The notes under the pieces were generated by a model. It saw only the letters and a list, made by a program, of their open reading frames with translations, was not told the DNA's origin and ran no database searches. From NCBI GenBank assembly GCA_964451145.1, contig CAYVHK010000004.1, forward strand, positions 3,844 through 67,843: 64,000 bases of DNA. The letters run 5' to 3'. Source of the stretch: an uncultured bacterium. GTDB taxonomy: Bacteria > Poribacteria > WGA-4E > UBA9662. Position 1 is the first letter of the stretch. Every line of letters starts with the position of its first letter. Position numbers and translations under genes: made by a program. Positions 1,400 through 40,113 of the stretch are shown piece after piece.

Positions 1400-2401
1400 A
1401 TGACTGTTGATACAATTTTCGGACACGACCAGATACAAAATCAACTCTACAATGCCATTGAAACTGATCGAGTTGCTGGTGCCTATTTATTCGTTGGAAT
1501 GGTGAGTTTAGGGAAAGAAAAAGTGGCTCTAAATTTTGCTCAGTCGATCAATTGTCTTAACTATCAAAATAACACATCTAATAATCAAAAAAGAGGGGCA
1601 TGCCACGAATGTCTTTCTTGCCGAAAAATGATGGCTGGTAATCACCCTGATTTTGCTGTTATTAGACCAGAAGGAACTCATATCAAAATCGATCAAGTTC
1701 GTTCTATTCAGAGTCAGATCATCTTTCGTCCTCTGGAAGGAAGACGAAAGATCTACTTATTCACCGATGTTGAAAAGATGAGTTTAGAAGCTGCTAATTG
1801 CTTGTTAAAAACATTGGAAGAACCACCAGCGGAATCAACACTCATTTTAGTTGCTAATAACATTGACGCTTTATTACCAACTATCCGTTCTCGGTGTCAA
1901 GTCTTACCTTTTCAGCCGATGAAAGTTGGAGAGTTGACCAAAGTACTGCTTGAGCTTTTTGATCTAGATCCTAGTCAAGCAACGACGATCGCAGCCCAAT
2001 CACAAGGAGCGGTTGGACAAGCGCTTTCTCTTTGTCAAACAGAAGAATTTGTTGAAGTTGGTGAAATTCCAGAAATTCTGACTAGTACTGACCGTTTGTC
2101 CATTTTCAGAATCGCTGAAACCTTAAGTGAAGACCCAGAGCAATTAGAACAGCTTTTGACTTGGTATCGGGATCTGCTCTTGATCCATCAACAGGTAAAT
2201 CCTAAATTGCTGACACATCAGCATAATTTGTCAGAGCTACAGAAAATAGTTGAAAAATATTCCCGATTTTATTTACAAAAAGCAATTGGAATTATTCTAG
2301 AAACTAAGAGTCGAATTGCTCATAACGTTAACACTCATTTAGCTATTGAAGTTATGGTATTAAATCTTTTGCCGAAGCCTGATGTCAAAAATCACCTATA
2401 A
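1400..2401 (+). CDS. holB: DNA polymerase III delta-prime subunit
   Basis: AAA+ clamp-loader fold (AYLFVG...LGKE), Zn-module CHEC..C..C, follows tmk; ATG at 1400 in frame with ORF 1316-2401. Confidence 0.8.
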   Translation: MTVDTIFGHDQIQNQLYNAIETDRVAGAYLFVGMVSLGKEKVALNFAQSINCLNYQNNTSNNQKRGACHECLSCRKMMAGNHPDFAVIRPEGTHIKIDQVRSIQSQIIFRPLEGRRKIYLFTDVEKMSLEAANCLLKTLEEPPAESTLILVANNIDALLPTIRSRCQVLPFQPMKVGELTKVLLELFDLDPSQATTIAAQSQGAVGQALSLCQTEEFVEVGEIPEILTSTDRLSIFRIAETLSEDPEQLEQLLTWYRDLLLIHQQVNPKLLTHQHNLSELQKIVEKYSRFYLQKAIGIILETKSRIAHNVNTHLAIEVMVLNLLPKPDVKNHL

Positions 2402-4235
2402 ATTGACGCTGTTACCGTCCAAAACTGGTGTGTATTTGATGAAAGATGAAAGGGATGTTGTGCTGTATGTTGGTAAAGCAAATTCGTTGAAAGATAGGGT
2501 TCGATCCTATTTTACTAACTCTAAACCACATGCTTTGACTGCATTGATGTTACCCTATGTAAGAGACATTGACTATATTGTCACCAGTAACGATGTTGAA
2601 GCATTAATCTTAGAAAACAACCTGATTAAAAAATACCAGCCGCTTTATAACATTCGTTTAAAAGATGACAAGGGATACCCGTACTTGAGAATAACCAACA
2701 ATGCACCTTTCCCAGCTTTAAAGGTCGTGAATCGAATAGCTGAAGATGGTGCACGTTATCTAGGACCATTTGTCAGGTCCCATGCTCTTCGCAAAACTGT
2801 TAAAGACTTAACTAAAGTTTTTCCCATTCGAACCTGTGATTTGGAGTTAAAGACAATTGGTAATAACCATCGGGTTTGTCTTGATTATCATATCGGTAGA
2901 TGTTCTGGTCCTTGCGCAGACCTCGTGAAACCAAAAGAATACGGAAAAATGGTCAAAAATGTGATTCGTTTTTTTAGTGGCGATACAACTATGGTTGTTA
3001 AAACCTTAGTGAAAAAAATGGAGATAGCCGTAACTCATCTTGATTTTGAGAATGCAGCTAAGTATCGGGACCAAATAGCTACTATACAACAAGCTATAAA
3101 TCAACAGAGCGTTGAAAATCCAATGGCGGAAGACGAGGACATTATTGGCATCGCTCGATCAGGAAAACAGACTTGCATAATGTTAATGCTAGTAAGAAAT
3201 GGTTCTTTGGTAGATCGAGAGACGTATTTTCTGTCTGATATCATTGTTGAATCAAAAACCTGGTTGTCAGAATCATTGATTGCCTTTATCCAACAATATT
3301 ATTCTGCTGCAACTTTTATTCCCAAGATGGTTATTTTGCCGATTGAAATCGAAGCACCTCAAACCATTCAAGATTGGTTAACTGACCAAAGAAGTCAATT
3401 AACTAATGGTAAACTAACAGCTCAAGTGCAACTACAAACACCTAAACGAGGGCGAAAACGACAGTTAATCGACTTAGCACAGAAAAACGCCCAACTGGCT
3501 TTAGAAAAAAAAGATGCCACGATATTGAAGGAGGAATTTGGGTTATCTAATAAAAAAGATCAGCTAGTTGACCTCCAAGAATTGTTGGATTTGCCACAAA
3601 TTCCGAAACGAATTGAAGGATTCGATATTTCTAATTTGGGTGATCAACTACCAGTAGCTTCGATGGTCGTAGCATTGGAAGGTGAACCTAAATACTCTGA
3701 GTATCGTCGATTTCGCATTAAAACAGTCAAAGGACAGAACGATTTTGAGATGATGAAAGAAGTTGTTCAACGGCGGTTTCAGCGACTAGCTCAAGACTGT
3801 AAATTTCCTGATTTAATTTTGATTGATGGTGGCAAAGGCCAATTAAATGCTGCTTGTCAAGCACTAAGGGAACTCGAATTATCTCATTTGCCGATAATTG
3901 GTTTGGCAAAAAAAAACGAGCATATCTTTCTTCCGGGTCGATCGATTCCCATAGTATTAAGGCATGATAATCCAACTTTGCATCTTATTCAACGTTTACG
4001 GAATGAGGCACATCGTTTTGCTATCAGTTACCATCGAAAATTAAGACGATTGGCTTTAAAAAAATCAGTATTAACTCAAATTCCACTGGTAGGTGAAAAA
4101 CGATAACAAGCTTTACTATCACATTTCGGTTCAATTGACAAAATTCGACAAGCAAATGTTAATGATTTACTTAACATCGATCAAATTGACATCAGAGTAG
4201 CTGAAAATATCTACCGCTATTTTCATTATGAATAA
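2382..4235 (+). CDS. uvrC: excinuclease ABC subunit C (UvrC), full length but with an in-frame TAA at 4104-4106
   Basis: GIY-YIG N-terminus (GVYLMKD...VLYVGKA), UvrBC-interaction and RNase H-like regions; the C-terminal (HhH)2 domain (QALLSHFGSIDKIRQANVNDLL...) continues in the SAME frame directly after the TAA that ends ORF 2382-4106. Confidence 0.8.
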
Positions 4236-4319
4236 TACAAAAAGTTACCGATGATTTTAAGGGTGATTTCAGCGCTCATTTTCTTTACAAAAGTCGAAAA
4301 AAGATAAGCAAGGGGTTTT

Positions 4320-5288
4320 ATGAAAGTATTAGTTGGACCTAACGGAGACATGGGGTTAGAAAACTCTATTCCAGAATTATCAGATCAATTTCCAAATGTC
4401 GAATTTCAAGTTTATTCCAGTTATGATGCAGTTACTAAAAATATCGCCGATGCCGATATTATGGTAGGCTGGCTAAACCAAGAAATATTTCAAGCTGCAA
4501 AAAATCTGAAGTGGATTCAATCAATTAGTTCTGGTACCAATCACTACTTAAATATCCCTGGACTAGCTGATAGCGAAGTCTTACTTACTAGTGCCAGTGG
4601 CACGCATGCTGCTTGTTTAGCTGAAAGTACAATGGGGATGATATTTGCCTTTACTCGTGGTATTCGTTCATCTATCCAAAAGCAAACGGCTAAGCAGTGG
4701 AACGAAAATCGATATATCCGCCGAGATATGAAAGAGCTAACTGGCAGTACAATGGGAATAATTGGTTTTGGTGCTACAGGTCGAGCTTTGGCAAGACGCG
4801 CGTTTGCTTTTGATATGCGGATTGTGGCTGTGGATGTGTTTCCCAGTGATAAACCAGAGTATGTTGATAATCTGTGGGGGATCGATCAACTTAGCGACCT
4901 TCTCAAAACCTCAGACTACGTGGTAATTATGGCCCCATATACTGACCAAACTAAAGGGATGATTGGTCGGAAAGAACTGGCTGATATGAAGTCATCTGCG
5001 ATGTTGCTCATAATGTCTCGTGGTGGAATTGTTGATCAAGAAGCACTATCGGAGGTCCTTAAAAACGGTCGTTTATCTGCTGCTGCTTCGGATGTTTTTA
5101 GCCCAGAACCACTGTCAATCGATAGCGATTTGTGGGATTTAGAAAATATGTTGATTACTCCACATATAGCTGGTGGAACTCAGCTTGAAGGGCAATATAT
5201 CACTCAGATTTTTTCTGATAATTTACAACGTTTTGTCAAAGGAGACTATGAATTGAAAAATCTGGTCCATAAAAAACGGGGTTTTTAG
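4320..5288 (+). CDS. D-isomer-specific 2-hydroxyacid dehydrogenase family protein (NAD-binding)
   Basis: 322 aa; GxGxxG-like IGFGATGRALARRA Rossmann motif, catalytic R/E/H pattern of 2-Hacid_dh family. Confidence 0.75.
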   Translation: MKVLVGPNGDMGLENSIPELSDQFPNVEFQVYSSYDAVTKNIADADIMVGWLNQEIFQAAKNLKWIQSISSGTNHYLNIPGLADSEVLLTSASGTHAACLAESTMGMIFAFTRGIRSSIQKQTAKQWNENRYIRRDMKELTGSTMGIIGFGATGRALARRAFAFDMRIVAVDVFPSDKPEYVDNLWGIDQLSDLLKTSDYVVIMAPYTDQTKGMIGRKELADMKSSAMLLIMSRGGIVDQEALSEVLKNGRLSAAASDVFSPEPLSIDSDLWDLENMLITPHIAGGTQLEGQYITQIFSDNLQRFVKGDYELKNLVHKKRGF

Positions 5289-7467: not shown

Positions 7468-9260
7468 ATCAAGTGGATATTCAAAATATTATTCAATCGA
7501 ACAACTTTGATACTGAGAGATTACGTTCAGCTGTTCATCGGCTAGTTCAAGCGTCGGCCGCCATCTTTGATTCATCAAACTGGCAGCCAGAGAGAGCTGA
7601 TGAATTTCGAAAAAGAATTCTCAATGAGATTGTTTTTCGGGGAGTACCACCGGATTGGCGAAGGCACCAAACAAAAATTGAATCGATTGATATTATCGAA
7701 ACTGACGGCGGTTATCAGATTCAAAAATTACGGTTAGAAATCTTGCCAGATTTTTGGATTCCAGCTTTGCTTTACCAACCAAATACATTTAAATTTAAAG
7801 AACCATTACCTGCTATGTTAAGTGTTAACGGACATATTGGTCCCCTTGGTAAGTCAATAGAATTTGTACAAAGGCGGTGTATTAACCTTGCGAAGCGAGG
7901 GATTTTGACTTTGCACTTAGAGTGGTTGTCTTTCGGTGAGTTGAGTGCCCCCAACTACACACACAATCGATTAGCCTATTTAGATTTGTGTGGAGTTAGC
8001 GGTTTATCTGTTTTCTATTTGGCGATGCGAGGTGGACTAGATCTGTTGTGGGAACATTCGTTTGTCGATAAAGAGAAGATTGCCATGACAGGTCTTTCTG
8101 GTGGCGGTTGGCAGACCATTGTTTTGAGTGCTTTAGATACCCGTATTGCTCTCTCAGTTCCTAATGCTGGTTACATCGACATTTCCAATCGATTGAGCCA
8201 TGTTGGCGACATTGGCGACTTAGAGCAAAACCCAACGGATTTTCTCACTTTGGCCGACTATACACATTTGACTGCTCTGTTATTCCCTCGTCCAGCTTTG
8301 TTGATTTATAATCACCAAGACGATTGCTGTTTTGTAGCTGACCGGGCTAAACCGGCTATTTACGATGCAGTTAAGCCGATCTACTCTGCTGATTCGTCGG
8401 CCATTTTTACGTTCTATAAAAATGTTGATCCCGGTACTCACAATTATGACCGAGATAATCGGCAACGATTGTACCGTTTCTTGAGCCAGCACTTTCACAT
8501 ACCAATAATTCAAGACAAAGATATGGAGTTAGAAAGTGAGATTTTGTCCTCTGATACCTTGGTAGTTGGTCTACCTGATAAAGTTGCTAATTTTAAAACA
8601 TTAACGACCAAAATTATCAGGCAACAACATCAAATGGTAAGTAAATCACCTGAAAAACTGAAAAGTATTCTCCGTTTTCAACCAACCTCTGTGCACCAAG
8701 TTGAACCAGCGAGTATGGAAGGACAAAGTGGTCAGTTCATTTTTGATAATGGCTTATCAGCATTCTTTTGCCGATTTGAACCCGAAACAAATACAACGAA
8801 TGAAACCGTAATATTGATTGCAGATCAGGGAGTAAGTTCAATGCTTACCGAAATTGATAAACAGATTAAGATCGGAAAATCGGTGCTAGCAGTTGATTTA
8901 TTTCTCACTGGTCAGGCTATACCTACTGGAATGTCTGTTTCTCATACAGTGATGTTACTTTCGACTGTAGGCCTTCGGGCACTCGGGCTTCAAGTGTCTC
9001 AATTAATTGCTATCATTAACTGGAATTTCCAACGATATTCGTCTGAGCGAATATCTCTGTTTAGTAAAGGATGGACAACTAGCATTGTTGCTCAACTCAC
9101 GAAAGAATTGTGTTTTGATCGAATAGAAAATCACATAGCCCTGAACCCACTAATAAGGCTACGGAATTTGATTGACAAGGAAGTTGAATACGAGCAGTGT
9201 CCAGCTCTATTTTGTTTCGGTCTACTTCGACATATTGATGGGACATCATTCAGGAATTAA
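7464..9260 (+). CDS. alpha/beta-hydrolase family protein (esterase/dienelactone-hydrolase-like)
   Basis: 598 aa; nucleophile-elbow GLSGGG; GTG start overlaps upstream TGA (GTGA). Confidence 0.55.
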   Translation: MNQVDIQNIIQSNNFDTERLRSAVHRLVQASAAIFDSSNWQPERADEFRKRILNEIVFRGVPPDWRRHQTKIESIDIIETDGGYQIQKLRLEILPDFWIPALLYQPNTFKFKEPLPAMLSVNGHIGPLGKSIEFVQRRCINLAKRGILTLHLEWLSFGELSAPNYTHNRLAYLDLCGVSGLSVFYLAMRGGLDLLWEHSFVDKEKIAMTGLSGGGWQTIVLSALDTRIALSVPNAGYIDISNRLSHVGDIGDLEQNPTDFLTLADYTHLTALLFPRPALLIYNHQDDCCFVADRAKPAIYDAVKPIYSADSSAIFTFYKNVDPGTHNYDRDNRQRLYRFLSQHFHIPIIQDKDMELESEILSSDTLVVGLPDKVANFKTLTTKIIRQQHQMVSKSPEKLKSILRFQPTSVHQVEPASMEGQSGQFIFDNGLSAFFCRFEPETNTTNETVILIADQGVSSMLTEIDKQIKIGKSVLAVDLFLTGQAIPTGMSVSHTVMLLSTVGLRALGLQVSQLIAIINWNFQRYSSERISLFSKGWTTSIVAQLTKELCFDRIENHIALNPLIRLRNLIDKEVEYEQCPALFCFGLLRHIDGTSFRN

Positions 9261-10818: not shown

Positions 10819-12057
10819 TTACCAAATTAGTAAACCAACGATGGTTCCTGTCATATTGGCAGCAAAAAAACCTGCAATCATCGATCTTAGACCAATTTTG
10901 GCTAAATCAACTCTTCGTTCGGGTGCAATGCCTCCAATTCCACCGATTTGGATTGCGACTGAAGCAAAATTAGAAAATCCACACAGAGCGTAAGATAGGA
11001 TAATTATGCTTCGATTCGAAAACACTTCATCCGACATCTGTTGTGCAAAGCTGGTGTAGGCGATCAATTCGGTAAGAACAATTTTTTCTCCTAATAAAGC
11101 ACCCGCAGACATAACTTCGGCAAGTGGTATACCCATAAAGATAGCAAACGGAGCAAATAGATAGCCAAATAGTAGCTCTAAACTAAGTCCGACGGTGGAA
11201 AGAATTCCATTGACTAAAGCAATGAGAGCCACGAAAGCAATCAACATAGCAGCAACATTAAGCGCAAGATGCATACCTTCAGATGCCCCCCGGCTAGCGG
11301 CTTCGATGAGGTTAGAATCAGTCCGCTCAATTTTGATTTTAGTTGTGGTTGCCGTGACAGGTATTTCCGTTTCAGGAATCATGATTTTTGAGATTGCCAA
11401 AGCTGCAGGAGCACTCATCACACTAGCCGTTAATAGGTGGCCTGCAATATTGGGCACATGATCCGATAACATTCGAACATAAATTGCCATCACACCGCCT
11501 GCAATGGTCGCAAAACCACCCGTCATCACTGCCATTAATTCACTTTGAGTCAAATCTTTAATAAATGGTTTAATAATCAGAGGTGCTTCTATTTGACCAA
11601 CAAATATATTAGCCGAGGTACAGAGTGTTTCAGCGGCTGATGTTTTCATTGTCTTTTGCATCAGCTTGGCAAACAGAGAAGTAATGATTTCCATGATACC
11701 AATATGATATAGAATGGACATAACCGCAGAGAAAAAAATGATTGTCGGCAAAACACGAAAGGCGATGTTTAACATTGGCGCCTCGACTGAATTGGTTACG
11801 AAAGACTGGAAAATAAAGTCAGCACCCTTATCAGAGTAAGCTAAAAGATTAGTGAAAAAATCATCAAAAAGACGAAAAAACACTTCGCCAAGATTTAAAT
11901 TGCCAATTCGGCCATAGAGAATACAAACCGCAAAAATAATCTGTAATCCAATTCCCCATAGTACTGGTCGCCAATTAATTGCGCGTCTGTTAGTACTTAT
12001 TAGATAGGCAATACCTAATGGAAAAAAGACACCTATTAGACCAAAAAAACGTTCCAT
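10819..12057 (-). CDS. nupC: concentrative nucleoside transporter (NupC/CNT family)
   Basis: 412 aa polytopic membrane protein with CNT N- and C-terminal conserved segments (GIGLQIIFA..., ...GGIAPERR...). Confidence 0.75.
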   Translation of the reverse strand: MERFFGLIGVFFPLGIAYLISTNRRAINWRPVLWGIGLQIIFAVCILYGRIGNLNLGEVFFRLFDDFFTNLLAYSDKGADFIFQSFVTNSVEAPMLNIAFRVLPTIIFFSAVMSILYHIGIMEIITSLFAKLMQKTMKTSAAETLCTSANIFVGQIEAPLIIKPFIKDLTQSELMAVMTGGFATIAGGVMAIYVRMLSDHVPNIAGHLLTASVMSAPAALAISKIMIPETEIPVTATTTKIKIERTDSNLIEAASRGASEGMHLALNVAAMLIAFVALIALVNGILSTVGLSLELLFGYLFAPFAIFMGIPLAEVMSAGALLGEKIVLTELIAYTSFAQQMSDEVFSNRSIIILSYALCGFSNFASVAIQIGGIGGIAPERRVDLAKIGLRSMIAGFFAANMTGTIVGLLIW

Positions 12058-12324
12058 ATTACTGCTTATTTTAAATATAGGTATAAGACTCGAGTTCTAT
12101 TCAAACCTCAGAGACCTTCTTCACAAGTTAAATACATTAGGCTGCCTATCATCACTATCCAAAAATGGGACAGGATAGGCTGAGTTTGGGTTAGAAGCCA
12201 TGTTAACTGCTGCAATTTCATTGTCATAGAGTCATAATAATTATAAGGATATTTCTTAGAATAAAAATACTAGAGGTCATTTTTCTATTTAAATCTCTTT
12301 CATCATGTCAAGACAACGGAAAAA

Positions 12325-12371
12325 CTTAATGGCATTATAACCAACCGATTATAATGCCATTAAGTTTTTTT
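12325..12371. terminator. orphan bidirectional rho-independent terminator (perfect 16-bp stem, 8-nt loop, A-run upstream / T7 downstream)
   Basis: CTTAATGGCATTATAA-ccaaccga-TTATAATGCCATTAAG followed by TTTTTTT and preceded by GGAAAAA; no flanking gene is oriented to use it. Confidence 0.6.
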
Positions 12372-13147
12372 ATCAAATCATTTAACCCAGAAATACCGAA
12401 ATAGAAAAGTATTAATAATCATAAGTAATTTGCTCTAATTTTGTTAAGTAATCATCATAACTACTTTATTGATCATTTAGGGAAAAAGAAAAATCTCAAA
12501 TCATTATTCCTACTAGTAATAATTTGTTACCAGTTGTATGCGGTGTGAAATAAAAAAAGGATTGAAACTGCATAAAAAACAAGAAACAGGTTTGCAAATT
12601 GGTGTCTGAAAACAAGTATAGTCAGCCAGCTATACCAATTCCAACAGAACGAACCTGATTCCTAATTTTCTCACTTTAGGACGTGGACGCGACTAACTTC
12701 AATGGTCTCTGAAGCTACCAACACGTTTTATTCCGATTGGATTTCTGTAGTATTGAATATCGCGCAATGGCTTTCAAAAGTTACTAATTCCAAGCCAGTA
12801 ATCATCAGCTTGATAATTTAAAAAAGAAGTAGTCAAAAATTATAGATTGATAACTAAGTACTAATGGGTACTTAATCAATTACAATTATTGATCAAAAAT
12901 TGTCTCGGGTTATTTTAACTATCAATATGATATTGAATAGTCCTGGTCCAACCACCATATTTAACTGATTGTGAATCTGTTATTCAAATGATAGAATTGC
13001 CACAATTTCCATTTCAAATTTTATTTGGGTTATGGTCTAACCTTCTGGTTGGAAAATGTAGGTGTTTTTTTATCTCGATTGTACATTGCTAACCAATTTG
13101 TCACTGATAACCCAAAGTTTTCCTAATAGAAAAAGGAGTCTCATCAT

Positions 13148-15238
13148 TTGGGTTTTCTAAATCCAGTCTTTTTATTCGGCATGATGGCAACCGCTATACC
13201 TTTGCTGATTCATTTGTGGCATCGTCGTCAGGCCAAGAACATCGTTTTCAGTAGCCTGATGTTTTTGACGCTGGCTCACAAGCAAACAGCTCGGCGTATA
13301 CAACTTTATAATTTGTTGGTTTTAGTTCTACGAATGATGATTATTGCCTTGATTACTCTAGCTCTTTGCCGTCCATTACTAAAGAATAATGTATTTTTTG
13401 TTGGTCATCGGACAAATACTAGCTGTGTTATCATCCTAGACCATTCGTATAGTATGGGCTACCGAGATATAGACGGTCAACGATTTTCCATTGCTCAAGA
13501 AAAAGCTACTGAAGTTATTAATTCCTTGAAAAATGGAGATGAAGCCACAGTAATTCTGATGTCGGATATAGCCTCGGCTATTTTTCGCCAACTAACTACT
13601 GATCTCAGGTCGGTACGAACTGCAATCCAACAGGCAAAACTTACTTACCGGACTACCAATATCACACCAAGTTTAGATTTAGCTCATGAAATTTTGGCTC
13701 AATCGAACAATCATAATCGAGAAATTTATTTGATTACTGATCTTGCTGGTTGGAAACAAACTCAACCCATTGCCAATCGATCAGGATCAAAAATTTTCAT
13801 TTTACCCATCGGTCAACATTTGGCAGAAAATCTCGGTTTATCTAAGGTTGCTAAAAATACCCCTCTAGTTGCTGTAGATCTTCCTATTCAAATTGAAGCT
13901 CAAGTTAGCAACTTCACTAATGCGCGATTGGGTCAAACATCGGTTCAATTCTTTTTGAATGAGCAAAAGCGACGTCAGTTACAACTTCCAAACGAATCAA
14001 AAAATCTTCTATCAGTTGGTTTCACTCATGCATTTGAGACAATTGGTACACATTTGGGTTACTTGGAATTACCACCAGACCGATTAGAAACTGACAATCG
14101 ACGATATGTCGTCTTTGACGTTTATGGCCAGATTAAGACGTTATGTGTCGTTGACCAATCACTTTATTTGTTAACAGCATTAAACCCATCTTTATTTTTA
14201 CCGACAACTTTATCGACAAATATTACTGATACACAGATATCGACAACTATTCAGCCGAGTATTATTAAGCCCTCTGAAATAACAACTGTTTCGGTCAAGG
14301 ATTGGGACTTATTGTTACTGGCTGATCTGGAGACCTTCTCAGCAGAAATGATCCAGCAATTACAGTCTTTTTTGAGAGCTGGAAAAAGTGTCATTCTATT
14401 CACCGGATCGAATCTGAATTTTGGTAACGAATTAGAAGATTGGCTTGGTGTTTCTTTTTCTGGTAATATTACTTGGAAACCACGAGCTCAAATCGTTTTA
14501 CAAAAAGAACAGCACCCAGTTTTTGCCCCTTTTTTAGCTACTGATTTTTCCGGTGACTCGGTTCCACAATTTTCTCGCAGTTCAAATTTATTACTAAATA
14601 AGTCGGCTCAGGTACTAGCCTATCTGGAAAATCATCAAAAACGAGTACCGTTTTTGGTGGAGTATAGGCCAGAAACCAAAAGTGGATTGAATAAAGGAAC
14701 GGTATTGGTTTTTAACACATCAAGCTATTTGTTAACTGATGCAAACCTGTTGATTACCCCTTACTTCCTTCCTTTAATTCAACAATCGATACTTTACATT
14801 AAGTCTCGAGAAAAAACGATTGACCGTCAATTGGTTGTCAGCCAACCTTTTAAGCTAGATGTGGGGGCTTTGGCAAACCGGGTAGAAATTACTAAGCCTG
14901 ATAGCTTAGAACCAGTTACCATAGAATCCGACGGTGCAATTCATTTCAATCAAACTGATCAGCCGGGCTTCTATCAGGTTGACGTTTATTTCGAAGAAAG
15001 CAAGGAACGCCAATTTTTTACTGTTAATGTTTCACCTACAGAATCCGACTTACGACCGATTGACTTAGAAGAAGCCAAGGCGCGTATATCGGCACAAGTG
15101 TTAGGCAAAGAGCAAGAATTAGGTGAAAAATTAAATACATCTCGGACGGGACGAGAGATTTGGGGGGAATTGCTAGGGTTGGCTCTATTGTTGTTTGGTA
15201 TCGAAAGTCTATTAGTTAACCGGAATCAGAAAAGTTAA
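13148..15238 (+). CDS. BatA-like vWA-domain protein with N-terminal double-TM aerotolerance-type domain
   Basis: TTG start with GGAG 9 nt upstream; N-terminus MGFLNPVFLFGMMATAIPLLIHLWHRRQAKNIVFSSLMFL matches the BatA N-terminal double-TM signature; vWA MIDAS-like region (IILDHSYSM). Confidence 0.7.
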   Translation: MGFLNPVFLFGMMATAIPLLIHLWHRRQAKNIVFSSLMFLTLAHKQTARRIQLYNLLVLVLRMMIIALITLALCRPLLKNNVFFVGHRTNTSCVIILDHSYSMGYRDIDGQRFSIAQEKATEVINSLKNGDEATVILMSDIASAIFRQLTTDLRSVRTAIQQAKLTYRTTNITPSLDLAHEILAQSNNHNREIYLITDLAGWKQTQPIANRSGSKIFILPIGQHLAENLGLSKVAKNTPLVAVDLPIQIEAQVSNFTNARLGQTSVQFFLNEQKRRQLQLPNESKNLLSVGFTHAFETIGTHLGYLELPPDRLETDNRRYVVFDVYGQIKTLCVVDQSLYLLTALNPSLFLPTTLSTNITDTQISTTIQPSIIKPSEITTVSVKDWDLLLLADLETFSAEMIQQLQSFLRAGKSVILFTGSNLNFGNELEDWLGVSFSGNITWKPRAQIVLQKEQHPVFAPFLATDFSGDSVPQFSRSSNLLLNKSAQVLAYLENHQKRVPFLVEYRPETKSGLNKGTVLVFNTSSYLLTDANLLITPYFLPLIQQSILYIKSREKTIDRQLVVSQPFKLDVGALANRVEITKPDSLEPVTIESDGAIHFNQTDQPGFYQVDVYFEESKERQFFTVNVSPTESDLRPIDLEEAKARISAQVLGKEQELGEKLNTSRTGREIWGELLGLALLLFGIESLLVNRNQKS

Positions 15239-17720: not shown

Positions 17721-18073
17721 TTTTTGTTCCTTGATGCTGTATTTTCGTTTTTATTATTGCTTGTTTGTGCTTTTAGATTTACGGTACTTAACAGGCGCAT
17801 ATTCTATCAGAGTCGATTTTTCACTTCAACCACTTTGGTTGCACAGAACAAAGTATATTTGCTGAATTAACATTGGTCGGCATTGTTAATTACTATCGAT
17901 AATTCTCATTCATATAAGGCCGAGTTAGGTATTCTATGAGCTTTAATTTTAGCCCACTTCACAGGTGTTTTCTCTTTTTTTATTTGGGAATCCAAAGCTA
18001 GATGATATTCAACCAACTCAAATATCTCTTGATTGATTGTTTTAAGTCGAACTGGACCGATATTCGGAGCTAA

Positions 18074-18560
18074 TCACGCATAACTTAGCCAATTTTTCTT
18101 TTGATCATTACGATGATTTACCATTTCTTCTGAGATTCGCAGTACACGCCGAAAATGACCGGCTTTAACCTTTACATTTTCCACACTCAGGATTTTATAA
18201 TTACTGATCAAAATATCTTTCGCTTTTTTCTGATGAAACCGCACACCACTAGTTGACCACTTCTTTTCCAATCTCATCTCAGTTGTTTAGGAATAAACAG
18301 CTGATCATCGGCATATTTATAAGTTGTAGAACGAATTTTTCGATCTTTCCTTTCCTTTGCTTAAACTGAATCAAATCGGATTGATGCCAACCAGTAACTT
18401 TATGACTCAAAAAGTAAGACCTAAAGTTGATAGTGTTGTGAATTACAACCATGTTTCGATTAGCATTTTTAACCCGTTTGGATCTTTTATGCGTTCGATT
18501 TTCAGCCCTTTCCTATTCCATCGATAAAACTTGAGTGGTATGTGTCACACTGTTTCCTCG
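18074..18560 (-). pseudogene. decayed reverse-transcriptase remnant (group II intron/retron-like RT fragments in three frames)
   Basis: Minus-strand frames contain ...KVTGWHQSDLIQF (motif-4-like), then frame-shifted YKYADDQLFI (RT motif 5, YADD at ~18304-18315), then ORF 18074-18277 GVRFHQKKAKDILIS (motif-6-like); multiple stops/frameshifts. Confidence 0.35.
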
Positions 18561-18758
18561 TCGGTGGAATACCCACTTATTGCCAATACTTACAGGGAAA
18601 TAATCTTCTGAAACTAGCTGAGAAGCTACAAAGAAGAAAATAAAAGTTGAAAATTGGACAACCGTATGCCTAGTTAATATTTTCCTCATTTCTTATCGCT
18701 CTAGATACTTACTTTTGCCGTCCGCTGTATTATAACACAATAAAATTGCCATCCACGT

Positions 18759-26591: not shown

Positions 26592-27791
26592 ATGTCTTTA
26601 TCCCCTCATAAAATCGCTATGCTCGGTACAGGGTTTATAGCCGATTTTTATACCTCTACGTTACATAGCCAACGTGGTATTGATCGTGTACAAGCAGTTT
26701 ATTCTCGGTCAAAAGATCGAGCGAAAGTATTTCAATCGAAATGGAATGTACCACATGGTAGCGATAGTTTAGAAGAAACCGTGAATCGAGATGATATCGA
26801 TACCGTTATTATTGGATTACCCAATCACCGCCATGAAGAAGCTGTTCTGGCTGCTGCTAATGCTGGGAAAGCTATCTTATGCACAAAACCATTGGGCCGA
26901 AATGCGGCTGAGTCAAAACGGATGTTAGAGGCCGTGCAATCAGCCGAGGTATTTCATGGTTATTTGGAAGATCTGGTTTATCCTCCCAAAACGCTAAAAG
27001 CTCTTCAATCGGTAAAAAATGGGGCTTTGGGTAAAGTGCTGTGGGTTCGATCCCGAGAGACGCATCCCGGTCCGCATAGTGATTGGTTTTGGAATAACGA
27101 AATGGCAGGAGGAGGAGCCATTATCGATATGGGTTGTCACTGTGTTGAAATTATTCGTAACTTCATTGGTAAAGGGGTACGGCCAGTTGAAGTTATGTGT
27201 TGGGCTGATACGTTGGTTCATCCTATCGAAGCTGAAGACCATGGCATTGGTTTAATCCGGTTTGAAAACGGAGCCATGGGACAATTCGAAGTTAGTTGGG
27301 CTTTTCGTGGAGGTATGGACTTACGAGACGAAGTGTCGGGTTCCGAAGGCACAATTTGGCTTAATCATTTGTTGAGAAACGGTTATGAAATGTATACATC
27401 AGAAAGTAAATGTTGATACGAAGCTGAGAAAGCAGAAGGTGATACCGGTTGGTTATTTCCGGTTGGTGATGAAGCTGCTGAACTTGGTTATACCGACATG
27501 TTCAAGGAGATGTTTACTTGCTTAGATAATGACACAGAACCAATGGAAACCTTCTATGACGGATACATAGTCAACACTATCATTGATGCTTGCTACCGAT
27601 CAGCCGAAACTCGTCAATGGGAAACTATTGAACTCGATATTTGGCAAGGTGATGAAGGTGTAGAACATGTTAGAGCTATAACCGAGTTAGACGGTAAAAT
27701 TGTAATTAAGACTGAAGTTATGCCCGATGGTAGAACTAAGCAGATTTTAAAAGACGCTGAGAGTGGTGAAATTAGTGAACAACTATTATGA
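26592..27791 (+). CDS. Gfo/Idh/MocA-family oxidoreductase, full length with an in-frame TGA at 27414-27416
   Basis: N-terminal Rossmann ([10 protein letters not shown]), C-terminal GFO_IDH_MocA_C continues in the same frame after the TGA (…[22 protein letters not shown]…[10 protein letters not shown]…[11 protein letters not shown]); the TGA aligns with Gly of paralog 54025-55134. Confidence 0.7.
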
Positions 27792-39057: not shown

Positions 39058-40113
39058 TTATTTTTGTAAACTAAAAAACTCTACTAAATCGGATCCGTGT
39101 GTTTTTGTGTTTAGTTGGTTTTCGATTTTTGCGATTTTACCTTCCATATCAATATAGATTGCCATTCGATCACTAGTACTACTAATGGTTTCCTTGGCCG
39201 CTCCATACAACATACTCAAGTTTCGACCAACATCAACTAATAGTGGAAAGTTGAGATTGTCACGAATGACAAAGTCCCGATGTGATTTTGCGTCTTGAAC
39301 CGAAATACCAAACACCTGGATGTTCAAGGATCTAATTTGGCTCATCTCATCCCGGAGAGAGCAAACTTGTGCCGTTCAGCCAGGTGTCATATCCATTGGA
39401 TAAAACGATAAAACGACATTCTTTTTATTTTTAAAATTGCTGAGACGATAGCCTTTTCCATTTTCATCATAAGCGACAAAATCAGGAGCTAGCTGTCCAA
39501 CTTTGATCTCATATTTTATTGTAGATCGAATTGTTTTCAGTATTTCGATTCCGTGTTCTGGAATATTAATCTGGTTATTAATAGAACGAACGTATCCAGA
39601 CTTATCAATAACAAAAGTGGTCCGGCCTGACATTTTTTTGTCACTTGTGATACTTGAATATAGTTTAGAGACTACTAAATTGGTGTCGGCCAGAAGGGGA
39701 AATCCAAACTGATATTGTTCCTGAAAATCGTGATGCGATTTTTAGTCGATACCACTAATACCATAAATGACAGTTTCAGTTGCTTTAATATTGGTCAACT
39801 CATCACGGAGCGACTCCAATTCAGAAGTTCAGCCACCAGTAAAATCTTTGGGATAAAACGCCAAAACTACGTTTTGCTTACCCCAGTTTTGACTTAGGCT
39901 ATGTGTATTACCAGATCCATCCTCTAGCTGAAAATCAGGAGCAACCATACCAACAACGATCTCTCCCCCTACGGTAGGATAAAGAAGCGTTTGCTTTCTT
40001 TGTTCAGCTACATTTTCTACCATTTTAAACTCCTTTTTCTTGGTCTGTATTTCACCAATCACAGAAGCGAATGAAATAAGAATCACTAATATTATTAATG
40101 CGTGCCTATACAT
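39058..40113 (-). CDS. secreted tandem double peroxiredoxin (Bcp/PrxQ-type x2 in one frame); TGA (39829-39831 and 39376-39378) at both peroxidatic-Cys positions, likely selenocysteine, plus in-frame TAA at 39742-39744
   Basis: Continuous frame: signal peptide...VAPDF...FYPKDFTGG-TGA-TSELESLRDE...GISGID-TAA-KSHHDF...FPLL...TFVIDKSGYV...KVGQLAPDF...FYPMDMTPG-TGA-TAQVCSLRDE...FGIS...FPLL...AIYIDMEGKI; no stop or start codon between the two Prx units. Confidence 0.75.
39340..39362 (-). promoter_or_regulatory. candidate SECIS hairpin downstream of second Prx TGA
   Basis: mRNA +14..+36 after UGA: G-C,C-G,U-A,C-G,[U bulge],U-A,C-G,U-A,C-G, loop CGGGAU; same geometry as the first with compensatory changes (C-G vs G-C; U-A vs G.U). 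Confidence 0.4.
39793..39816 (-). promoter_or_regulatory. candidate SECIS hairpin downstream of first Prx TGA
   Basis: mRNA +13..+36 after UGA: G-C,[A bulge],G-C,U-A,C-G,G.U,C-G,U-A,C-G with 3'-bulged U and loop CGUGAU. Confidence 0.4.

What the first reader, a model, noticed from the sequence alone, without database searches (positions are those of the whole stretch)
2382..4235. uvrC carries an in-frame TAA separating the nuclease body from its (HhH)2 domain
ORF 2382-4106 ends …IPLVGEKR-TAA. The next 42 codons in the same frame encode the canonical UvrC C-terminal helix-hairpin-helix domain (QALLSHFGSIDKIRQANVNDLLNIDQIDIRVAENIYRYFHYE). The TAA occupies the position of a basic residue in homologs (GEKR-K/R-x-ALL). 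No other frame bridges the two parts.
Basis: partly seen in the sequence, partly recalled or inferred. Interest (0 to 1): 0.55.

Follow-up and report, generated by a model that had tools for sequence, protein, structure and literature searches.

The report
Private premature stop in uvrC
The DNA-repair gene uvrC of this marine Poribacteria genome carries a single-base change that turns a conserved lysine codon into a stop, which four close relatives lack, so it is an ordinary recent nonsense mutation (or a base-call error), not a recoding signal.

Summary
ORF 2382-4106 ends in TAA, and the next 42 in-frame codons complete a canonical UvrC of 617 residues.

The TAA does not sit between domains. 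It lies about 16-20 residues inside the (HhH)2 domain, at a lysine or arginine conserved in all homologues.

Four alleles from the same species (96-99% nucleotide identity) all read AAA at this codon, so the stop is a private A-to-T change (K575*). Sister species have full-length UvrC (619 and 622 aa).

Nothing supports recoding:
- TAA is the main terminator in the window (26 of 51 genes).
- The window holds no tRNA.
- The tail has no in-frame start codon.

The window also holds three other broken genes: a DUF3108-like gene with four lesions, a Gfo/Idh/MocA gene with TGA where homologues have Gly, and a peroxiredoxin with an extra TAA. Related assemblies carry private lesions of their own, including two more in uvrC.

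Best reading: a recent nonsense allele giving a UvrC that lacks a foldable (HhH)2 domain. By published deletion work this form would keep 3' incision and have weaker 5' incision. A consensus or base-call error cannot be excluded without reads.

Low interest. A two-selenocysteine, two-domain peroxiredoxin seen in passing is more interesting than the finding itself.

The parts
2382..4103 (+). Truncated uvrC reading frame (574 codons). It holds the GIY-YIG domain, the Cys-rich region, the UVR motif, two RNase H-like domains and the first helix plus hairpin of HhH motif 1.
   Evidence: Pfam hits for GIY-YIG, UVR, UvrC_RNaseH and UvrC_RNaseH_dom. TIGR00194 scores 575 bits on the read-through product. 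The start overlaps holB by 20 nt, as in relatives.
4104..4106 (+). Premature TAA (K575*). It is a private A-to-T change at position 4104 of an AAA Lys codon.
   Evidence: L001, L082, L083 and L084 all have AAA here. Lys is present in all 9 aligned homologues. The equivalent residue is K, K and R in PDB UvrC chains.
4107..4232 (+). Orphaned 42-codon tail. It encodes the rest of the (HhH)2 domain and is still intact.
   Evidence: HHH_2 at E = 3.7e-9 on the tail alone. The tail is 100% identical at protein level to the intact allele P0124/L082, with one synonymous difference. No in-frame ATG, GTG or TTG is present, so independent initiation is unlikely.
4233..4235 (+). The ancestral (natural) uvrC stop codon, TAA.
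   Evidence: Same position as the stop of the 617-aa intact alleles in L001 and L082.

Best explanation
A recent single A-to-T transversion, private to this lineage, changed Lys575 (AAA) of uvrC to TAA in this pelagic Candidatus Poribacteria genome.

Shown: the substitution, its absence in close relatives, and its position inside the (HhH)2 domain.

Inferred: ribosomes terminate at the TAA and produce a 574-residue UvrC. This protein keeps the GIY-YIG 3'-incision nuclease, the UvrB-binding region and the RNase H-like 5'-incision nuclease, but it lacks a foldable (HhH)2 DNA-anchoring domain.

Inferred from published Delta(HhH)2 constructs: such a protein still binds UvrB and DNA and makes the 3' cut normally, but makes the 5' cut inefficiently. 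The allele would then be a hypomorph or the first step of gene decay.

It is one of several gene-disrupting lesions in this window and in related assemblies. It reflects ordinary mutational load, not a programmed feature.
For: - Across uvrC the window differs from L001 at 26 of 1854 nt, and codon 575 is TAA against AAA. L082, L083 and L084 also read AAA.
- Sister-species clusters are almost all full length, at 619 and 622 aa.
- The gene was under purifying selection until recently: dN/dS is about 0.09-0.15 upstream of the stop.
- The tail shows no decay, with 0 nonsynonymous differences from L082. This indicates a young lesion.
- TAA is the commonest terminator in the window, at 26 of 51 genes.
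- The window holds no tRNA, no in-frame start codon in the tail and no bridging frame.
- Genuine gene decay exists in the same window. The DUF3108-like gene at 17909-18689(-) has TAG, TGA and two frameshifts relative to the intact homologue P0423. A Gfo/Idh/MocA gene has TGA at 27414-27416 where homologues have Gly, Asp, Ser or Glu. The peroxiredoxin gene has an extra TAA at 39742-39744 where the sister species has Glu.
- Functional consequence: in D. radiodurans, UvrC-Delta(HhH)2 keeps UvrB binding, DNA binding and 3' incision, and has partly impaired 5' incision (PMC10085695, read).
Against: - No reads are available, so a consensus or base-call error at 4104 would look identical.
- The perfectly intact tail fits an error just as well as a very recent mutation.
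- Two other same-species assemblies also have private lesions in the 3' third of uvrC: L084 has a 26-nt deletion and L085 has +1 A in an A-run. This could mean something more systematic than random load, such as relaxed selection on this gene. Alternatively, these low-coverage assemblies may be error-prone.
Confidence: 0.64

Rival explanations
1. Sequencing, assembly or consensus error. The organism really has AAA, and the T at 4104 is an artefact of a low-coverage metagenome bin or an amplified single-cell genome.
For: - It is a single-base difference from four relatives.
- The downstream tail is perfectly intact.
- Related short metagenome contigs show an unusually high density of private lesions, about one per 5 kb in L084, L001 and L085. 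This could reflect data quality.
Against: - Lesions in the window are not spread evenly, as random error would be. Four of them pile up in one 780-nt DUF3108-like gene, which indicates real decay.
- Most of the ~50 other genes are intact with normal domain hits.
- A substitution outside a homopolymer is not a typical systematic error.
Confidence: 0.25
2. Relaxed or adaptive loss of the UvrC C-terminal module in this species. Independent truncations recur because the 5'-incision and (HhH)2 part is dispensable in its deep, dark-ocean niche.
For: Three different lesions hit the 3' third of uvrC among five distinct same-species alleles: the window's K575*, a 26-nt deletion between CAAAT repeats in L084, and +1 A in L085. 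The rate is about 0.3 lesions per kb in uvrC, against about 0.06 per kb elsewhere in the compared DNA.
Against: - The enrichment is post hoc and weak. My own Poisson estimate gives P of about 0.02 to 0.1, depending on the baseline.
- All of these contigs were retrieved because they carry uvrC.
- Two alleles are intact, and dN/dS of 0.09-0.15 shows ongoing constraint.
- Sister species keep full-length UvrC.
- Other genes (MacB-like permease, the 598-aa gene) are also hit in the same contigs.
Confidence: 0.08
3. The TAA is decoded (by a suppressor tRNA, or by leaky or programmed read-through), so that full-length UvrC is still made.
For: - The tail is intact and in frame.
- A second conserved gene in the window, the peroxiredoxin, also carries an in-frame TAA at a sense position.
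- The base after the stop is C (TAA-C), which is used by only 3 of the 26 TAA-terminated genes in the window.
Against: - The stop is absent from every relative, so nothing is conserved.
- TAA terminates half of the genes here.
- No tRNA and no Rfam element is present in the window.
- From my own knowledge, no natural bacterial TAA reassignment or programmed UAA read-through is established.
- The other premature stops in the window use TGA and TAG as well, as expected for random nonsense mutations.
Confidence: 0.03

Closest known systems
UvrC (excinuclease ABC subunit C, TIGR00194), e.g. D. radiodurans UvrC (617 aa; PDB 8B0Q) and T. maritima UvrC (PDB 2NRT)
   Same: - Same domain order and the same overall length (617 aa).
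- All catalytic and Cys-cluster residues are conserved.
- The closest allele is 98% identical and intact.
   Different: Translation is cut at residue 575, inside the first HhH motif. The encoded product is a natural equivalent of a Delta(HhH)2 truncation.
Engineered UvrC-Delta(HhH)2 (D. radiodurans, PMC10085695) and C-terminally truncated E. coli UvrC (cited in that paper)
   Same: Both lose the C-terminal DNA-anchoring (HhH)2 domain while retaining both nuclease domains and the UvrB-binding region. The expected phenotype is normal 3' incision and reduced 5' incision.
   Different: The allele here keeps a roughly 20-residue stub of the domain. Its activity, stability and expression are untested.
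Ordinary bacterial pseudogenes and nonsense polymorphisms
   Same: It is a single private lesion, absent in relatives. It occurs alongside other broken genes in the same genome.
   Different: It carries one lesion only, with no downstream decay yet. It cannot be told apart from a functional truncated allele or from an error.
Stop-codon recoding systems (selenocysteine at UGA; UGA-to-Trp or UGA-to-Gly codes)
   Same: Both involve an in-frame stop codon at a sense position in a conserved protein. True UGA-selenocysteine recoding is probably present elsewhere in this very window, in the peroxiredoxin.
   Different: - The codon here is UAA, not UGA.
- It is not conserved in relatives.
- It replaces Lys, not Cys.
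- UAA is the main terminator in the window.

Membership tests
UvrC (TIGR00194 / excinuclease ABC subunit C) | N-terminal GIY-YIG nuclease domain | tested here: met
   Pfam GIY-YIG hit over residues 15-90. Y18, Y29, R39, E78 and N90 are invariant in the alignment.
UvrC (TIGR00194 / excinuclease ABC subunit C) | Cys-rich metal-cluster region and the UVR (UvrB-binding) motif | tested here: met
   C152, C166, C174 and C178 are invariant. Pfam UVR hit over residues 206-237.
UvrC (TIGR00194 / excinuclease ABC subunit C) | C-terminal RNase H-like endonuclease domain with the DDH triad | tested here: met
   UvrC_RNaseH_dom hit over residues 399-548 at E = 6e-55. D415, D482 and H544 are invariant. The region aligns to 2NRT, 3C65 and 8B0Q.
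UvrC (TIGR00194 / excinuclease ABC subunit C) | Contiguous C-terminal (HhH)2 domain in the translated product | tested here: not met
   The domain is encoded, with HHH_2 aligning over residues 567-616 of the read-through product. It is interrupted by TAA at codon 575. The gene is a uvrC; its standard-code product is a truncated UvrC.
Programmed stop-codon recoding or read-through | The in-frame stop is conserved in orthologues | tested here: not met
   AAA in L001, L082, L083 and L084. Lys in all more distant homologues.
Programmed stop-codon recoding or read-through | The codon is not used as a general terminator, or a cognate suppressor tRNA is present | tested here: not met
   26 of 51 genes in the window end in TAA. 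The window has no tRNA. The rest of the genome could not be searched.
Selenocysteine insertion | A UGA codon at a redox Cys position, followed by a SECIS hairpin | tested here: not met
   The codon is UAA and replaces Lys.
Pseudogene / nonsense allele | A disabling lesion is absent from close relatives, and other decayed genes occur in the same genome | tested here: met
   The lesion is absent from relatives. Other decayed genes are the DUF3108-like gene with four lesions and the Gfo/Idh/MocA gene with an in-frame TGA.
Pseudogene / nonsense allele | Relaxed constraint downstream of the lesion | tested here: inconclusive
   Only 1-5 differences fall in the 126-nt tail, with 0 nonsynonymous differences from L082. 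This is too few to tell and is consistent with a very recent event.

The most novel reading that the evidence does not exclude
This Poribacteria lineage tolerates UAA nonsense codons because UAA is partly decoded, by a suppressor tRNA or by leaky termination. Full-length UvrC and the full-length two-domain selenoperoxiredoxin, which also carries an in-frame TAA, would then still be made.
Probability: 0.03. Interest if true: 0.7.

Novelty: already known. Interest (0 to 1): 0.12.

Why it matters
It matters little in itself. A private premature stop in a repair gene is routine mutational load or an error, and annotation should flag the gene as a truncated or possibly disrupted uvrC.

It has some practical value as a caution. 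In-frame stops in metagenome-derived genomes need comparison with close relatives before recoding is invoked.

If the allele is real, the cell would have weakened 5' incision in nucleotide excision repair. Together with the other uvrC lesions seen in this species, that would justify a population-level look at repair-gene decay in deep-ocean Poribacteria.

Tried and rejected
- Exact-product look-ups found nothing: the window's 574-aa ORF and its database twin P0121, the zinc-ribbon neighbour and the Gfo N-terminal ORF. The source contig and further same-species copies of the other broken loci could not be retrieved.
- A 42-nt degenerate pattern around the stop found nothing in metagenome contigs.
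- A protein scan of metagenome contigs with the peroxiredoxin found only relatives at 32-39% identity.
- The genome-contig scan gave only a 73%-identical Poribacteria MAG, then other phyla. The window's genome is apparently not a species representative, so a second uvrC, cho, or a tRNA-UUA elsewhere in the genome could not be sought.
- Rfam at gathering threshold found no families, and ARAGORN found no tRNA.
- A frameshift bridge was rejected, because the other frames are closed.
- Separate expression of the HhH tail was rejected, because the tail has no in-frame start codon.
- Selenocysteine for the Gfo/Idh/MocA TGA was rejected, because homologues have Gly, Asp, Ser or Glu there, never Cys or 'W'.
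- SECIS-like folding downstream of the peroxiredoxin TGAs gave small hairpins, but their z-scores were no better than shuffles. It was left as inconclusive.

Full report
**What is in the sequence.** The window is about 40% G+C and densely coding. From ATG 2382 an ORF of 574 codons ends ...IPLVGEKR at TAA 4104-4106. The same frame continues for 42 codons to TAA 4233-4235. The upstream part carries the GIY-YIG, UVR and two RNase H-like UvrC domains. The 42-residue tail alone hits Pfam HHH_2 at E = 3.7e-9. The read-through product scores 575 bits on TIGR00194 uvrC. The other two forward frames are closed around the site, and the tail contains no in-frame ATG, GTG or TTG.

**Where exactly the stop lies.** HHH_2 and HHH_5 align to the read-through protein from residues 563-567. 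Alignment to the solved C-terminal halves of UvrC (3C65, 2NRT, 8B0Q) puts the stop at the K, K or R of '...G(E/P/Q)(K/I)R-K/R-xAL(L/I)'. In D. radiodurans UvrC, which is also 617 aa, the (HhH)2 domain spans residues 550-608 (PMC10085695). The site corresponds to about residue 566. The TAA is thus inside the domain, in the second helix of the first HhH motif, and not at the junction with the nuclease body.

**Who it is and what relatives have.**
- The closest proteins are from Candidatus Poribacteria.
- The 90% cluster around the best hit holds five sequences. Two are intact 617-aa alleles (P0001, P0124). One is a 574-aa NCBI protein identical to the window's ORF. The other two are shorter forms.
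- DNA of the relatives (L001, L082, L083, L084; 96.4-99.2% identical to the window) shows AAA at the codon in all four. The stop is a private A-to-T transversion at 4104, giving K575*.
- Lys is present in all nine more distant homologues aligned.
- In the two sister-species clusters (79% and 74% identity), nearly every listed member is full length at 619 or 622 aa. At least three of the shorter ones are labelled partial.
- dN/dS between the window and relatives is about 0.09-0.15 upstream of the stop. The tail has 0 nonsynonymous differences from L082. The gene was constrained until very recently and the lesion is young.
- The 3' end of the window's gene is a mosaic. It is L084-like up to about 3990 and L082-like after that.

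**Against recoding.** TAA terminates 26 of 51 genes in the window. The window contains no tRNA and no Rfam family. The stop is not conserved in relatives. No second uvrC lies in the window.

**Context: other broken genes.** A scan for in-frame neighbouring open stretches, followed by homology checks, showed that uvrC is not the only disrupted gene.
- A DUF3108-like gene at 17909-18689(-) has TAG (18513-18515), TGA (18074-18076) and two frameshifts, relative to an intact 257-aa homologue that is 85-91% identical over the two main aligned segments.
- A Gfo/Idh/MocA oxidoreductase (26592-27791) has TGA at 27414-27416, in a loop where homologues have Gly, Asp, Ser or Glu.
- A two-domain peroxiredoxin (39058-40113, - strand) has a TAA at 39742-39744 where the sister species has Glu.

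The concentration of four lesions in one small gene argues that real decay, and not uniform sequencing error, operates in this genome. About 50 other genes look intact, including mutS.

**Lesions in related assemblies.**
- L084 has a 26-nt out-of-frame deletion between CAAAT direct repeats inside the HhH-coding part of uvrC. It also has a 1-nt deletion in the 598-aa gene and a nonsense codon in a MacB-like permease.
- L085 has one extra A in the A-run at window 3908-3916, which splits uvrC into 528 + 85 aa.
- L001 has a 43-nt insertion in the permease.

Three of five distinct uvrC alleles are thus damaged in the 3' third. This is suggestive. However, the contigs were selected for carrying uvrC, other genes are hit too, and my rough Poisson estimate is only P of about 0.02-0.1.

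**Mechanism.**
- Shown: a private nonsense substitution inside the (HhH)2 domain.
- Inferred: translation stops, giving a 574-aa protein without a foldable (HhH)2 domain.
- From the literature: D. radiodurans UvrC-Delta(HhH)2 still binds UvrB and DNA. It has intact 3' incision and partly impaired 5' incision, which is rescued by adding the C-terminal half (PMC10085695).

The allele would therefore be hypomorphic or an early pseudogene. Without reads, a consensus or base-call error remains a serious alternative. I put it at about 0.25, against about 0.64 for a real mutation.

**Comparison and novelty.** The gene is a bona fide uvrC. Its product under the standard code fails only the 'contiguous (HhH)2' feature. 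It fails the tests for programmed recoding and for selenocysteine, on conservation, codon identity and terminator usage. It meets the tests for a nonsense allele or pseudogene. This is a known, ordinary kind of event, and interest is low.

**Side finding.** The peroxiredoxin gene is a fusion of two BCP/PrxQ-type domains. Each has TGA at the peroxidatic Cys position (39829-39831 and 39376-39378). Homologues down to 45% identity are stored in the protein database with 'W' at both positions. The DNA of one homologue (L086) shows that these are TGA codons translated with a UGA=Trp table. Conserved TGA at a catalytic Cys site strongly suggests a two-selenocysteine enzyme. SECIS-like hairpins were not statistically supported.

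Noticed in passing
window 39058-40113 (- strand); TGA at 39829-39831 and 39376-39378; also L086:608-1660: One reading frame encodes two fused BCP/PrxQ-type peroxiredoxin domains. Each has TGA exactly at the peroxidatic Cys position (FYPKDFTGG-TGA-T, FYPMDMTPG-TGA-T). Ten aligned homologues (45-67% identity) are stored with 'W' at both sites (one has Gly at the second). L086 DNA shows these are TGA codons called with a UGA=Trp table. This is likely a two-selenocysteine, two-domain peroxiredoxin family that is mis-annotated in databases. SECIS-like hairpins were not statistically supported.
   Followed up: partly
window 39742-39744 (- strand): The same peroxiredoxin frame also contains an in-frame TAA (GISGID-TAA-KSHHDF), where the sister species has Glu and others have variable residues. 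This is a probable nonsense mutation cutting the first domain. No same-species DNA was available to test whether it is private.
   Followed up: partly
window 26592-27791 (+), TGA at 27414-27416: A Gfo/Idh/MocA oxidoreductase is interrupted by TGA (…[20 protein letters not shown]…), with 124 further in-frame codons that align to homologues. Homologues have Gly, Asp, Ser or Glu at that position, so this is a nonsense mutation (probably GGA to TGA) and not selenocysteine.
   Followed up: yes
window 17909-18689 (- strand): A decayed DUF3108-like gene has TAG at 18513-18515, TGA at 18074-18076 and two frameshifts near 18280-18372. The comparison is with an intact 257-aa homologue, P0423, which is 85-91% identical over the two main aligned segments. 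This explains the apparent ~1 kb 'gap' in coding.
   Followed up: yes
L084:7394-7720 (uvrC 3' end), L085:1520-1622, window 3908-3916 and 4154-4179: Two other same-species assemblies carry independent uvrC lesions. L084 has a 26-nt out-of-frame deletion between CAAAT direct repeats inside the HhH region. L085 has one extra A in an A8/A9 run, splitting the gene into 528 + 85 aa.
   Followed up: partly
L084:2774-4030 and window position 8135 equivalent; L001:1113-2412: Related contigs have further private lesions outside uvrC. L084 has a nonsense codon in a MacB-like permease and a 1-nt deletion splitting the 598-aa gene. L001 has a 34+9-nt AT-rich insertion in the permease. This is roughly one lesion per 5 kb, which suggests either high mutational load or low assembly quality.
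   Followed up: partly
window 3860-4235: The window's uvrC 3' end is a haplotype mosaic. It matches L084 up to about 3990 and L082/L083 after that. The 4001-4500 bin holds the most substitutions against L084 in the shared region and the second most against L001. This suggests recombination among strains.
   Followed up: no
window 12058-13147: A 1.1-kb AT-rich stretch (about 34.5% G+C for the 12001-14000 bin) has no open stretch above about 53 codons on either strand. It has no Rfam hit and no tandem repeat, and its nature is unknown.
   Followed up: partly
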